NCBI GenBank assembly: GCA_951406725.2
Contig: OX597827.1
Location: 44,206,001 to 44,270,000, forward strand
Length of the DNA: 64,000 bases
Direction: 5' to 3'
Origin: Octopus vulgaris
Lineage: Eukaryota
Position numbers and translations under genes: made by a program
The notes under the pieces: model-generated
Told to the model about the DNA's origin: nothing
Database searches by the model: none
What the model saw: only the letters and a program-made list of their open reading frames with translations
Shown: piece after piece, positions 22,235 through 51,587 of the stretch
Layout of the letters: each line of letters opens with the position of its first letter
How positions within the stretch are numbered: the stretch's first letter is position 1

Positions 22235-22762
22235 ACGTTATATAATTAGGGCTCAGTAAAATAATTTACTTTACCACACACTGAAACTTTTAGAAATAGC
22301 AGCCAAAAAGTTTTTTAGCTATTTCTTCTACTATAAGAAAAGTCTCCCAGATAGTGTTTACTCAAATCCAAATATAAGAAATGTGTTTATCCAAATCTAA
22401 ATATAAGAAATGTTGAGCTGACGAAAGAAGTGTTGAGTTTTAAATTCAACTAATCCAGAAACGTAACGTTCTCAACTGATCTTTGTACATGTGATAATTT
22501 GTTATTTTCCCCTCCATATCTGCGTGAATTATTTTTGAGTAAACACTATCTGGGAGACTTTTCTTATAGTAGAAGAAATAGCTAAAAATCTTTTTGGCTG
22601 CTATTTCTAAAAGTTTCAGTGTGTGGTAAAGTAAATTATTTTACTGAGCCCTAATTATATAACGTAATATTTTAAATATACCTTGAATGGTCCTTTTACA
22701 TACTGGACACTACTTGGTGAAATTAATTAATAATTAATTGATTTTACCCTTTTATTATTGAT
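22235..22762 (+). mobile_element. hammerhead-bearing element with 132-bp 5' inversion, flanked by (TA)n
   Basis: Arms 22235-22366 and 22534-22665 are inverted repeats (1 mismatch). The hammerhead lies in the loop. The 3' end is ..TTTTACCCTTTTATTATTG(AT)n. Confidence 0.8.
22412..22476 (+). ncRNA. type I hammerhead ribozyme
   Basis: GTTGAG-CTGACGA-(..GTTGAGTTTTAAATTCAAC..)-GAAA-CG-TAA-CG-TT-CTCAAC; the base of helix II is imperfect. Confidence 0.7.
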
Positions 22763-23050
22763 ATATATATATATATATACATAAAGTTAATCCAAACAAG
22801 AAAACACAAAAAAACACAGCAACGCGAGGACGTGGAACAAATAAAGTATTATTGGACGCTCGGGAAAGAAGGGATATATTGATAAAAACGGTAAGACAAC
22901 AAAAGAAAGAGAGCTCGATATTATGTAGCTAGAGGAATTTATCTGTAAATGTAATATGTGGCTACCGAATAATTGTCACATATTACATTTACAGATATAT
23001 ATATATATATATATATATATATATATATATATATATATATATATATATAT

Positions 23051-23432
23051 ACTAGCAGTATCGCCCGGCGTTGCTCGGGTTTGTTTCGACCCTTTAGAAT
23101 TGGAATTTTTGAAAAGTATAGATTTTGCATTATGTAGCTTGTTATTTTCTTTAAGTGAACATTTTTTTTTGGTTGAAATACACCGAAAAATGGCGACGCA
23201 GCTGTCAAAAAATCGTAAAAAAATAGGGATTTTCATAGAAAAAAAAGCACTTTTTTATGTAAATAATTTTTGGTGTTAACATGGTCCGATTTGAATTTTT
23301 TCTTCTACGGAAGAAAGAGCAAGCCTTCTTCTATCATACTTTCAACTTTGGTCAACTTGCGCCGCAGGGTCTCGGAGGAGATAGTGTTAGTTGAAGGCTA
23401 CCAAACTTGCCATATACAGACAACTTCAGCTT
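23051..23432 (+). mobile_element. Helitron/Helentron-associated non-autonomous element (DINE-like)
   Basis: ACTAGCAGTATCGCCCGGCGTTGCTCGGG terminal hairpin; same terminus at 51976; flanked by (TA)n. Confidence 0.65.
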
Positions 23433-23593
23433 TATATATATATATATATATATATATATATATATATATATATATATATATATATATATATATATATAAG
23501 TTCAAATAAAGGTCACAAACCACATTGAGGAATAATAAAATCCAGTAAATATACTGGTTAGTTACCTATTTAAAAAGTGTTGAATATTACAAT

Positions 23594-24116
23594 TACCGTA
23601 AATCCTCAAGTATAATCCGCATTTTTTTCCCTAAATTTAAAGGTCAAAATGCCTCGTACGTATTATATACGAGGTTAAAAATGAAAATTATTTTCTAAGC
23701 AATATCCGAGTTTCTATTTGCTGTCTGGCTATGTTTATTCAGATGCATTTTGTGATGTTGGGCGCGAAACTACCTTAAGCTAAGCCTGAAAGCACTGAAG
23801 TCATAAAAGGATCATCCATAACTTGTAGTAAGCCATTTATTAAACGTTATTGCTGTTATTACTGTTATTTCTTTATTTTCTGCAAACAAAATGCACAAAA
23901 AAGCTACATGTTTGCATTATGTTATATATACAAGAATAATAAAGGACGTTACCGCATACATTTTTACAAACCAAGGACGTTATATAGACCTCCTTGACTC
24001 AAGTTAGAGAAGGGGTGCGTATTATACACAAGGTTTAGGTTTTTCAAAGGTACAGCTCCCTAAAAATCCTCTGCGTATTATACTCAAAGGCGGAATATAC
24101 TCGAGGATTTACGGTA
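23594..24116. mobile_element. pogo/Tigger-like MITE
   Basis: TA-CCGTAAATCCTCAAGTATA ... TATACTCGAGGATTTACGG-TA, with internal GCGTATTATA repeats. Confidence 0.8.
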
Positions 24117-48019: not shown

Positions 48020-48357
48020 TTATTGTTTTCAGTCGCGGTTGTTTGTCTGTGGACAAAATATCTCAAGAACCACTGTGATGGATTCGGATTAAACTTTCAA
48101 GGATGTTTGGCCTCGTGACTGGCACGAACTGATTACATTTTGGGATCGATCCAGTGCCGGACAAGGATTCTGGATTATTTTTCCGGTTCTTTTTATTTAA
48201 TTTTTGAGAGCGGTCGGGTTCGCTTTTAGCATTCTCGTTTGTAACAGCAATCGAGTTTCTTTCGGATATTCTCATTTTAAAAATCATCTCTGGCTAATCG
48301 TAGAGAGGACGTTGGTATTGCCTTAGCTGAAGTTTGCGCTCTCTGAGTGTTCTTGTT
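48020..48357 (+). mobile_element. Helentron-associated (HINE-like) element
   Basis: TATTGTTTTCAGTC..GTTTGTCTGTGGACAA.ATATCTCAAGAACC..TTTGCGCTCTCTGAGTG.TCTTGTT; homologous to 36630-36750. Confidence 0.6.
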
Positions 48358-48687
48358 AAGGTTATTTCTACAGATTATTCACTTGGTCGCTTGTTACTTT
48401 TCTTGTTACGTTCATCGGTTCGCAGTGTCGTCTGTCCAGTGTCTGTGACCGAAGAGAAGATAACTACTCCGAAATGCTGCATCTCAGTCTGGAGAGAGGG
48501 CGCTGCGAACTGATGTAGGTGTATTAACATCATTGTCAACAGTGAGAAATTTTCTTCATGACGAAACACAGCAAATGCCTTGTTTATTAATCCAAACGTG
48601 CCACAAACCTATTTGAACTAGCAGTAATATTGCATTGTTAGTTTTCTGTTTTCTCTGTTCATAATCTGCTTCGTGAACAGCTAGACT

Positions 48688-48920
48688 TATGGGCTAATGG
48701 CTATGGAGTTGCGCTCACGATCGCAAGCCCATGGTTTCGATTCCCGTCCGGGCGGCGCGTTGTGTTTTTGAGCAAACACTGCATTTTACATTGTCCCAGT
48801 TCAAGTTGAACCGTAAATGATTAACCCTGTGACCGACTGGAATTCCGTTTGGAATTTATTTTCCGATCTTGCTCACTAATACGCTATAGAAAACGAGTAA
48901 CCGGTCCTATGACCCTAAGT
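48688..48920 (+). mobile_element. SINE family C (degenerate)
   Basis: GGTTTCGATTCC..GGGCGGCGCGTTGTGTTTTTGAGCAAA..GACTGG. Confidence 0.6.
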
Positions 48921-51000
48921 GCTCGAACTTCTAATGCCAATGTCCATAATCAACTTGCCCCTCATCTCTCTATTTCCTACGTATTCTACCCAAACACTTC
49001 GATATCATGGACAAGACTTTCCGTCATAAGCACGCACATACACACTGCTCACTTCCTTTACTCTACACACTCTTTCTCTCTTTCTTTGTCTCTGTCTCTC
49101 TCTGTGGAAGTTATAAGGTGATACACAAGCACTACGCTCTGCGTGCATTGCATTCTACAGTTGAATAGTAGAAACAGTTGTAAGCTAATGACATAATTTC
49201 TTATTTCCTTATCATTTATATAATATTTTATTACTACTCCGTACTCGACAAACACTTTCGTCTGAAGCATATCTATATTGAATTCTGACACCAGGTTCTT
49301 TAGCAACATTAATGTGAAGATAGATAGATAGATAGATAGATAGATAGATAGATAGATAGATAGATAGATAGATAGATAGATAGATAGATAGATAGATAGA
49401 TAGATAAATGGGTAGACAGTCACAAATTTATATACAATTTCGTGAGCTATATAACCATTATTTATTTAACCATTATATAAAGTCTTGTGCCAACAAAACG
49501 TTTGTCGAATAAGATTTTCATGACTAAAGCTTTTTCTTTTTCTTTCGCTTTAACAGCAATGTATGTGAGAGAGAGACAGACAGAGTATACATATATATAT
49601 ATATATATATATATGTGTGTGTGTGTGTGTGTGTGTGTGTGTGTGTGTGTGTGTGTATTATATATGTATATATATATATATATATACGAACACGTATATG
49701 TATATATGTATATATATATATATATACATATATATATACATATGCATATATATATGCATGCATACATATATATATATATATATACATACATCTATATATG
49801 ATGATGATATATATATGCATATATATGCATTTATATATATATATATATTTGCATATCTTTATATAATATATATATAATATATGCATATATATATATATAT
49901 ATATATATATATATATATATATATATATACGTGCGTATATCATATATATATATATATATATATACATATATGCATATATATATATTAAAAAAAAAATATA
50001 TATATATATGCATATATAAGGCGTGCTGTGCTTAACAGCAAGCAGGTTTTGTTGTATACTTCCGGTATATCAATATGGCTTCATTTCGCTGTTATAATTC
50101 ACCAGAAAGAACTTGTTTTCGTGATGGCATTTCGATATTATTTCCGGTCGACGTTTGTTATTTTTGTTTTTGCTTTCTCTTTCAGTTTTTTCCTTTTTTT
50201 TTTTTGTTTCAAAATCTTGAAATGCTGCATTATAAAAAAAAGAAAATAGTTTTCCCAAGTAAGCAGATTGCTTTGTTCCATACGTGTGTATGTATTATTC
50301 CATATATATATACATACGTGTATATATGCACACACGTACACATATATATGTATGTATGTATATATATGTGTGAGAGAGACTAAGAGTGAGAGAGACTAAG
50401 GGCGGTAAAGGTAATCTCAACTATAGACAACTCTTGTATTTCACGTTGCCGATTTTCAAGTAATATAAAATGAAATAAAATGAAACATTTCTGATGTATC
50501 TGTGTGTGTGTGTGTGTGTGTGTGTGTGTGTGTGTGTGTGTGTGTGTCTGTGTGTGTGTATTTGTGTGCATACATATCTATGTATATGTACGTATGTATG
50601 TATGTATGTATGTATGTATGTATGTATGTATGTATGTATGTGTGTATGTATGTATGTGCGTGTATATATATGTTGAGTGACAGAGTGGGCGGTACAGGTG
50701 TTTATATATATATATATATATATATATATATATAAATTTTTTATACTTTTTGATAGTTATATATAATTTTAAAAAATTTTAATAAAAAAAAATTATAAAT
50801 ATAAATATTAATATAAATTAATAATTTTAAATTTAAATAATTTAAATTTTAAATTGTATATTTTATATATTTTGTAAATTATATTAATTATTTTTATTTC
50901 TATATTTTGGTTTATGTTTTTCACTGTTTAATTTGCCTAATAGTGGTTTTATCTCTAATTTAATTGATATATATATATATATATATATACACATATATAT

Positions 51001-51587
51001 AATAAGAGTGGCTTGTTAGCAATTTTTTCAACCGTAAGGCAAAAATATAAAACAGTCACTAAAGCGACTAAGGACGTTATTCAGCACCGGTACTGCTAGA
51101 AATGTGAGCCAAAACAACTCATAGCGACAATGAGCACCATCATATTGACTGACAAGGGAGGTAAGCTCCCTAAGCACCTGGCATAGCCAGATCACCAGTG
51201 ATTTTGCATTTACATTAATGCTCGTAAGTGGCTTTTACCGGCGTCTCGGGTTAAATTCGACTCTCTTTGTCAGCTTATAAGATCACCGTAGAAACCGTAC
51301 GCTAGTTTCATAAATGGCAAAGGTCTAACATAAAAATAATAAGTATTCCAAGAAATTATTTATAATTTACATCTTTACCATTTATGAAATCAGCGAATGA
51401 TTTCTATGGTGATCTTAGAAGATGACAATGCGAGTTGAGTTTAACCCAAGGCGCCGGTAAGAGCCACTAACGACAATGTGAATGCGAAATCGCTGGTGAT
51501 TCGGCTGTACCGGTGCTCAGGGAGCTTGCTGCCCTTGTCATTCAATAAGATATTGATTATCGTGGCTATGAATTGTTTTGACTATTT
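51001..51587 (-). mobile_element. (TA)n-flanked element containing an about 480-nt imperfect rod-like inverted repeat
   Basis: Arms about 51107-51324 and 51371-51583 are roughly 75-80% complementary (by eye). Shares TTTTGGCT..ATTTCTAG and a 3'-terminal GCCACTCTTATT with the hammerhead elements. Confidence 0.65.

What the first reader, a model, noticed from the sequence alone, without database searches (positions are those of the whole stretch)
22592..51115. Shared short cis-motifs near the 3' ends of otherwise unrelated hammerhead elements
Seen, in ribozyme-sense orientation. (i) Terminal TTTTACCCTTTTATTATTG, GCCACCCTATATTGATTAATT, CTCACCCTTATTAATTAATT and GCCACTCTTATT, each directly before (AT)n (elements at 22.2, 24.9, 45.3 and 51.0 kb). 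(ii) About 40-70 nt upstream: ACTGGACACTACTTGGTG, ACTAGGCCGCTGGTG, ACTAGGCCACTTGGTG. (iii) TTTTGGCTGCTATTTCTA, TTTTGGCTGTTATTTCTAG and TTTTGGCTCACATTTCTAG in three of them. Inference: a conserved RT-recognition/priming signal and possibly a promoter element defining one superfamily of passengers.
Basis: partly seen in the sequence, partly recalled or inferred. Interest (0 to 1): 0.7.

Follow-up and report, generated by a model that had tools for sequence, protein, structure and literature searches.

The report
Shared 3' fold of hammerhead retroelements
Four small hammerhead-ribozyme repeats sitting in AT microsatellites share short motifs that are predicted to be the paired arms of one conserved RNA fold near their 3' end, which is likely the handle by which a Penelope-type reverse transcriptase recognises and copies them.

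Summary
All ten motifs exist at the stated places. They are not free-standing words, and the elements are not all unrelated. Elements A (22.2 kb), B (24.9), C (45.3) and D (51.0) are short non-coding repeats with intact (B, C) or decayed (A, D) type I hammerheads. They lie in (AT)n on both sides and show Penelope-like anatomy: partial tandems, and inverted copies lacking a ~95-105-nt tail. B and C are homologous over ~170-200 nt. In A, B and C, motif (ii) is predicted to supply the 3' arms of two helices plus the 5' arm of a terminal hairpin that motif (i) closes. The helix interiors mostly share no sequence yet still pair. D keeps the first two helices but lacks the terminal hairpin, so its 'terminal' motif corresponds to (ii). 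Two other hammerhead elements and a broken autonomous Penelope-like copy in the window lack the motifs. Best reading: a conserved RNA recognition and initiation signal of one superfamily of non-LTR retrozymes (function inferred, about 0.55). No support for a promoter. The helper element was not found, and no genome was available to search.

The parts
22367..22760 (+). Element A, sense copy; ends on (AT)n
22235..22366 (-). Element A, inverted partial copy of 22534-22665 (99%); lacks the last 95 nt (tail); ends on (AT)n
22412..22476 (+). A: damaged type I hammerhead (core at 22418, stem II base broken by a local duplication, GUU triplet, predicted cut after 22470)
   Evidence: sequence
22568..22714 (+). 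A: candidate P0 helix (22568-72 with 22710-14; 2.2 kcal/mol above the MFE) enclosing the motif-iii hairpin (motif iii 22592-22609) and P1 (22615-22707, p 0.97)
22716..22760 (+). A: terminal hairpin P2 (22716-22748, 15 bp, p 0.97; arms = end of motif ii and start of motif i) plus AU-rich end
24884..25696 (-). Element B sense: 490-bp unit plus an identical 323-bp partial tandem copy; ends on (AT)n
25693..25905 (+). Element B inverted partial copy (99.5%); lacks the last 104 nt; ends on (AT)n
25109..25215 (-). B: intact type I hammerhead (core at 25207, long stem II, GUA triplet, predicted cut after 25117)
24884..25054 (-). B 3' fold: P0 25054/24935 (p 0.94), motif iii 25043-25025, P1 25028/24940 (p 0.99), P2 24933/24898 (p 0.98), unpaired AU-rich end
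45260..45971 (+). Element C: 533-bp unit preceded by an identical 179-bp partial copy; (AT)n on both sides; member of a highly repeated family
45613..45688 (+). C: intact type I hammerhead (core at 45617, GUC triplet, predicted cut after 45684)
45775..45971 (+). C 3' fold: P0 45775/45910 (p 0.85), P1 45798/45905 (p 0.84), P2 45913/45958 (p 0.90), AU-rich end
51001..51345 (-). Element D sense arm: decayed hammerhead (core 51228, two core mismatches, predicted cut after 51190), motif iii 51114-51096, weak P1 51098/51017, P0 3' arm 51012-51008; no P2
51346..51587 (+). Element D inverted arm (78% to the sense arm); keeps the P0 5' arm at 51562-51566; stops inside motif iii, about 100 nt short of the sense end; ends on (AT)n

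Best explanation
A-D are hammerhead-bearing non-coding repeats with Penelope-like insertion anatomy, and their shared motifs are predicted to be the helix arms of one conserved 3' RNA fold that likely serves as the binding and initiation signal for a Penelope-type RT-endonuclease supplied in trans. Shown by sequence: hammerheads, partial tandems, inverted copies lacking a 95-105-nt tail, (AT)n at both ends, B-C homology, and motif order and spacing. Predicted: the fold P0-[UUUUGG hairpin]-P1, a 1-2-nt hinge, terminal hairpin P2, and an AU-rich single strand. Inferred: tandem transcripts are cut by the hammerhead into ~490-530-nt monomers or circles. The genomic 3' end lies 190-290 nt past the cut, so copying would start inside the RNA. 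The helper protein would bind the fold, nick (AT)n, and prime one cDNA just after P2 with 3-4 nt of AT microhomology and a second cDNA about 100 nt upstream from the other strand, which would give the inverted copy that lacks the tail.
For: Hammerheads. Anatomy and flanks match PLE insertions as described in PMC8557442. Homology B-C; a structure model from B alone picks C as best non-B hit with P0 and P1 in register (E 0.009). 3' domains fold better than shuffles in A, B, C (z -4.5, -4.7, -3.1). With 4-nt anchors fixed, interior shuffles fold as well in 0, 0 and 20 of 1000 (P2) and 1, 0 and 0 of 300 (P1), while the interiors are unrelated in sequence in 8 of 9 pairs. B vs C: 1 of 5 P0 pairs and 2 of 8 outer P1 pairs changed on both sides. 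Loose ends of sister subfamilies keep the hinge motif and a P0-compatible arm while the TTTT loop changes. Helices persist in circular monomers (p 0.87-0.99). Internal RT initiation at two sites that delimit the tail, with cleavage and extension of both strands at AT-rich DNA, is shown for a Poseidon PLE in PMC11167929.
Against: No helper element with the motifs was found; the window's only autonomous PLE remnant lacks them. Only 3-4 sequences, so no statistical covariation test; RNAalifold on the MAFFT alignment of B and C did not recover the fold because the motifs were misaligned. Whole monomers are strongly self-paired (z -7.95, -6.53), as retrozymes generally are, so hairpins alone are expected. 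D spread without P2 and folds no better than shuffles (z -0.8). The structure model ranks A below two microsatellite hits (E 0.069) and misses D's 3' domain. Of 17 family-C variants mapped, 6 of the 8 at paired sites break an inner pair, and one common variant alone drops the outer helices to p 0.15. Tails here (~100 nt) are longer than the 30-40 bp described for PLEs.
Confidence: 0.55

Rival explanations
1. The fold is real but serves the RNA circle itself (stability, ligation, export, host-protein binding, or keeping the hammerhead foldable), or is simply inherited from a common pLTR ancestor under general selection for self-pairing; RT recognition lies elsewhere.
For: Whole monomers are highly structured, as reported for retrozyme circles; B and C are plainly homologous; D lacks P2 yet inserted.
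Against: The fold sits at a fixed distance from the insertion end (P2 closes 12-14 nt before it in A, B, C); the terminal 46-nt window is the best folding of 30 windows in B and ties for best of 33 in C.
Confidence: 0.22
2. The signal acts as DNA: an endonuclease recognition site (as reported for the Penelope tail) or a Helitron-like 3' hairpin used in rolling-circle copying.
For: PMC11167929 cites the D. virilis tail as needed for endonuclease recognition of plasmid DNA; a hairpin 12-14 nt before the end, tandem units and AT targets recall Helitrons (recalled).
Against: Helices contain G-U pairs and long multibranch pairing that suit RNA; the unit junctions show no TC start or CTRR end (Helitron signature recalled); hammerheads and tail-less inverted copies fit PLEs.
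Confidence: 0.1
3. One or more motifs are internal promoter elements driving transcription of the array.
For: PLE pLTRs are reported to carry an internal promoter; motif iii is partly unpaired and sequence-conserved in A, B, D.
Against: Most conserved bases are predicted to pair; 4-10 T4+ runs per unit argue against Pol III read-through; only one-mismatch A/B-box hits, none at all in A; a sister subfamily changes the TTTT loop.
Confidence: 0.08
4. The similarities are chance matches in AT-rich DNA, picked after the fact.
For: Single motifs are marginal; only 2 of 6 element pairs align above shuffles; the D and A links are weak in unbiased models.
Against: B-C alignment 0 of 300 shuffles; 0 of 86 controls for A, B, C; relaxed motif ii and iii patterns hit only inside these elements, 5 of 5 and 7 of 7 window hits.
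Confidence: 0.05

Closest known systems
Metazoan non-LTR retrozymes (Cervera & de la Pena 2020, PMC7229834; Li et al. 2026, bioRxiv 10.64898/2026.07.22.740005)
   Same: Non-coding, low-GC tandem units, one type I hammerhead per unit, strongly self-paired monomer, high copy; proposed non-autonomous PLE derivatives.
   Different: In the parts read, no conserved cross-family 3' fold, no microsatellite targeting and no tail-less inverted copies are described; units here are 490-533 bp (170-400 nt in the 2020 paper; 51-972 bp in the 2026 preprint); circles are not shown here.
pLTR and tail of EN+ Penelope-like elements (Neptune/Naiad (TA)n bias, PMC8557442; Poseidon PAc, PMC11167929)
   Same: Partial tandems, adjacent inverted copy, tail at one end only, hammerhead, AT-rich or microsatellite targets, an end internal to the RNA.
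   Different: No ORF; tail about 95-105 nt rather than 30-40 bp; a multi-helix fold shared between diverged families rather than one AC-rich stem-loop.
SINE/LINE 3' stem-loop recognition (stringent LINE partners; recalled)
   Same: A passenger borrows an RT through a structured 3' signal.
   Different: No tRNA head (0 genes), no Pol III promoter, hammerhead and tandem/inverted insertions instead.
Athena/Terminon 3' hammerhead plus reverse-complement telomeric repeats (PMC6431247)
   Same: A 3' fold that exposes a stretch able to pair with the target; motif i contains one CACCC.
   Different: Single CACCC, mostly paired in P2, 230-290 nt from the hammerhead; insertions are internal in (AT)n, not at telomeres.

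Membership tests
Non-LTR retrozyme | Type I hammerhead in the repeat unit | tested here: met
   Intact in B and C, damaged in A and D. Rfam gave no hit at gathering threshold and no hammerhead hit on A, B, C at E<=5, so the call rests on a descriptor scan.
Non-LTR retrozyme | Head-to-tail tandem units | tested here: met
   B 1.66 units, C 1.34 units; end-to-start joint of C seen in 4 of 4 runs. Not seen for A or D.
Non-LTR retrozyme | Two consecutive complete hammerheads (the 2026 preprint's 'active' criterion) | tested here: not met
   B's upstream unit begins inside the core at 25696 and C has one hammerhead; other copies not examined.
Non-LTR retrozyme | No protein-coding capacity | tested here: met
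   No RT- or endonuclease-like frame seen by eye in A-D in a six-frame listing of frames of 70 or more residues; these frames were not scanned against Pfam.
Non-LTR retrozyme | Self-cleavage and circular RNA in vivo | not testable with these tools
   Only contigs were served; they cannot show ends or circles.
Non-autonomous Penelope-like element | Inverted adjacent copy with a tail at one end only | tested here: met
   A, B, D; tail longer than described.
Non-autonomous Penelope-like element | 3' similarity to the pLTR of an autonomous PLE in the same genome | tested here: inconclusive
   No genome held; the single remnant at 7290-9888 lacks the motifs.
Non-autonomous Penelope-like element | Microsatellite insertion bias | tested here: met
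   (AT)n at both ends of 4 of 4 elements.
tRNA-derived SINE | tRNA head with A and B boxes | tested here: not met
Helitron (non-autonomous) | 5' TC and 3' CTRR termini (recalled) | tested here: not met
   Ends and unit junctions read

The most novel reading that the evidence does not exclude
A structure-encoded recognition element, conserved by pairing rather than sequence across deeply diverged retrozyme families, is the long-sought cis signal by which circular ribozyme RNAs recruit a Penelope RT and start copying at two internal sites about 100 nt apart; P0-P1 would be the core binding domain and P2 a dispensable spacer that sets the distal start.
Probability: 0.35. Interest if true: 0.72.

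Novelty: new variant of a known kind. Interest (0 to 1): 0.5.

Why it matters
Which enzyme copies animal retrozymes, and what it recognises, is stated as open in the papers read. These families give a bounded ~170-200-nt candidate signal with predicted helices and mapped insertion ends, so the question becomes testable by covariation on family consensi and by a primed reverse-transcription assay. It could also serve as a hook to pair passengers with their helper PLE clade.

Tried and rejected
Whole genome: none held, so no family consensi and no search of autonomous pLTRs. Rfam: 0 hits at gathering; the E-value scan of the window was swamped by microsatellite/miRNA noise (150 of 415 rows shown); scans of A, B, C gave only chance-level hits (1, 1 and 3 rows at E 0.9-4.9); D was not scanned separately. 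Pattern scans found 2 viral and 23 metagenome loci; none of the 25 has an upstream hammerhead pattern or similarity beyond a 16-29-nt match, so all were read as chance. RNAalifold on B and C failed through misalignment. No RNA holder was listed as on record; this is no evidence on expression. Summed contig depth was not used as a copy number. The protein search with the PLE remnant gave 4 unnamed relatives and no host or clade name. Three look-ups of earlier findings returned nothing. Rejected: tRNA-SINE, Helitron, telomeric-repeat reading of motif i. Host: a cephalopod is my guess from the microsatellite load and editing pattern (recalled); no call names it.
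Full report
Observation. All 10 quoted motifs are present exactly and on the ribozyme-sense strand. The four elements are: A, sense 22367-22760 with an inverted partial copy 22235-22366; B, sense (minus strand) 25696 to 24884, a 490-bp unit plus an identical 323-bp partial copy, with an inverted copy 25693-25905; C, 45260-45971, a 533-bp unit plus an identical 179-bp partial copy; D, an inverted repeat 51001-51587 with arms 78% alike. All 4 of 4 have (AT)n at both ends. 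A descriptor scan finds intact type I hammerheads in B (GUA) and C (GUC); a relaxed scan finds damaged ones in A (stem II broken) and D (two core mismatches). Rfam reports none.

Is it chance? Singly the motifs are weak: p 0.02-0.3, uncorrected for 15 pairs. Together they are not. With each element's three motifs as template, the other two of A, B, C score above all 86 control segments that precede other (AT)n runs (194 runs found, 89 complex enough, 3 removed as the elements themselves); D, a fifth hammerhead element E and the PLE remnant do not. The motifs were chosen after the fact, so less biased tests were run. Of 6 element pairs, B-C aligns over ~200 nt (74 vs 26+-3.7; 0 of 300 shuffles), A-C aligns weakly over the full length (p 0.01; last 250 nt p 0.24), and 4 pairs do not exceed shuffles. 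Models built from B alone pick C as the best non-B hit in the window (E 0.0012 by sequence, 0.009 with structure), rank A weakly (2.1; 0.069, below two microsatellite hits) and miss D's 3' domain. So B and C are relatives, A is a probable one, and D the least certain. 'Otherwise unrelated' is wrong for B and C.

What the motifs are. Folding the last ~200 nt gives the same architecture in A, B and C (z -4.5, -4.7, -3.1). Motif (ii) has three parts: its first bases are the 3' arm of a long helix P1 whose 5' arm begins just after motif (iii); its middle (GCCRC in B and C) is the 3' arm of a 5-bp helix P0 whose 5' arm lies 6-9 nt before the TTTTG of motif (iii); and its final GGTG opens a terminal hairpin P2 closed by the (C/T)ACC of motif (i), 12-14 nt before the insertion end. 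With the 4-nt anchors fixed, shuffled interiors fold as well in 0, 0 and 20 of 1000 trials for P2 and 1, 0 and 0 of 300 for P1 (D: 18 of 300), although the interiors are unrelated in sequence in 8 of 9 pairs (B-C P1 excepted). Between B and C, 1 of 5 P0 pairs and 2 of 8 outer P1 pairs changed on both sides. In A, P0 is not in the minimum-energy fold but costs only 2.2 kcal/mol. D fits the scheme if its end is read as motif (ii): its hammerhead cut lies 76 nt before motif (iii) (74 in B), a weak P1 follows, and its inverted arm keeps a P0 5' arm complementary to the terminal GCCAC, while the sense arm carries one change there. D has no P2.

Evidence from other copies. The C monomer is held by 20 of 24 listed runs, from 9 studies and 2 coded organisms. 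In the four runs laid, 70-2478 contigs fit it and the end-to-start joint is present in 4 of 4, so it is a highly repeated, tandem-forming family; depth is not a copy number. Among the loose ends shown (24; 153 hidden) are sister subfamilies that keep the hinge and GGTG while the hairpin arm changes, one that has a fully paired P0 arm and a different loop in place of TTTT, and one that ends on (AT)n after a motif (i) variant. Of 40 variant rows shown (41 hidden), 28 fall in the 3' domain; I mapped 17 and left out 11 seen essentially only in run X3. Nine are unpaired, 2 keep a pair, 6 break an inner pair; only one touches the outer helices, and it keeps its pair. One common variant (45918) alone drops the outer helices to p 0.15; with the other majority variants they return to 0.82-0.84, but phase is unknown. 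This is compatible with the fold and no proof of it. Whole monomers are strongly self-paired (z -7.95, -6.53), so the case rests on the position of the helices, not their mere presence.

Mechanism. The genomic 3' end lies 189-290 nt past the hammerhead cut, so it is not the end of the processed RNA; copying would have to start inside the monomer or circle. In circular folds the helices persist (p 0.87-0.99), and the junction is more open than average in B (0.66 vs 0.38) and less so in C (0.46 vs 0.34). The inverted copies stop 95 (A), 104 (B) and about 100 nt (D) short of the sense end. PMC11167929 (parts 1-2 of 4 read) shows that a Poseidon PLE protein cleaves and extends both strands at AT-rich DNA and starts reverse transcription at two internal sites that delimit the genomic tail. 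PMC8557442 (passages) describes partial tandems, an adjacent inverted copy, a 30-40-bp one-sided tail and microsatellite bias. I infer the same cycle here, with the fold as the binding and initiation signal and a longer tail. This step is inferred, not shown (0.55).

Helper. The window holds a broken, 5'-truncated PLE at about 7290-9888 (RT motifs read, GIY-YIG E 4.8e-5, a CX5CxxC linker of the Neptune/Nematis kind by eye). It ends on (AAT)n, its 3' end folds no better than shuffles (z 0.1), and it lacks the motifs. One unrelated remnant neither supports nor refutes the link. Two further hammerhead elements (cores at 38475 and 38786) also end on (AT)n without the motifs, so the signal marks one superfamily, not all hammerhead repeats here.

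Promoter. Not supported: 4-10 T4+ runs per unit in A-D, only one-mismatch A/B-box hits, no tRNA gene. A Pol II internal promoter cannot be tested here.

Known or new. The elements fit non-LTR retrozymes (PMC7229834: passages and Discussion; bioRxiv 10.64898/2026.07.22.740005: parts 1-3 of 5), which are proposed non-autonomous PLE derivatives whose recognition by an RT is unresolved. Eight paper searches and passages of PMC13282606 (no mention of hammerhead or ribozyme) and PMC6431247 showed no description of a cross-family 3' fold in such elements. I did not read supplements, the library lacks most subscription papers, and Repbase and Dfam were out of reach, so the families themselves may already be catalogued. 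Verdict: new variant of a known kind; interest 0.5.

Noticed in passing
window 7290-9888 (+): Broken, 5'-truncated autonomous Penelope-like element (RT motifs, GIY-YIG, cysteine linker), interrupted at about 7940-8510 by a CR1/L2-like LINE 3' fragment (type recalled), with a decayed hammerhead-like stretch near 9770-9810; lies in (AAT)n.
   Followed up: partly
window 38430-38830: Two other hammerhead elements (core 38475 on +, 38786 on -) end tail-to-tail on one (AT)n run at 38682-38711; neither carries motifs i-iii.
   Followed up: partly
window 45439-45971, run X3: 31 A>G and 29 T>C places against 2-3 in the DNA runs, many absent there: looks like A-to-I hyper-editing of transcripts from both strands of family C. 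Depths are low, the run's RNA status is a guess and no matched DNA run was available.
   Followed up: no
window 25693-25696: The inversion centre of B falls in the hammerhead core, and the inverted arm starts about 11 nt further on inside stem II, suggesting cDNA joining at a structured pause.
   Followed up: no
window 23052-23420 and 51977-52340: Two elements sharing a 33-bp 5' end (97%) after (AT)n; resemble non-autonomous Helitron/Helentron ends (recalled).
   Followed up: no
window 51713-51958, 63615-63924, 3210-4291, 43755-43836, 26109-26237: Other palindromic or inverted-repeat elements, MITE-like; not examined.
   Followed up: no
window 13741(-), 20117(-), 32791(-), 62843(+), 22125(-): Further hammerhead-core-like words in short repeats, possibly decayed PLE 3' ends.
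   Followed up: no
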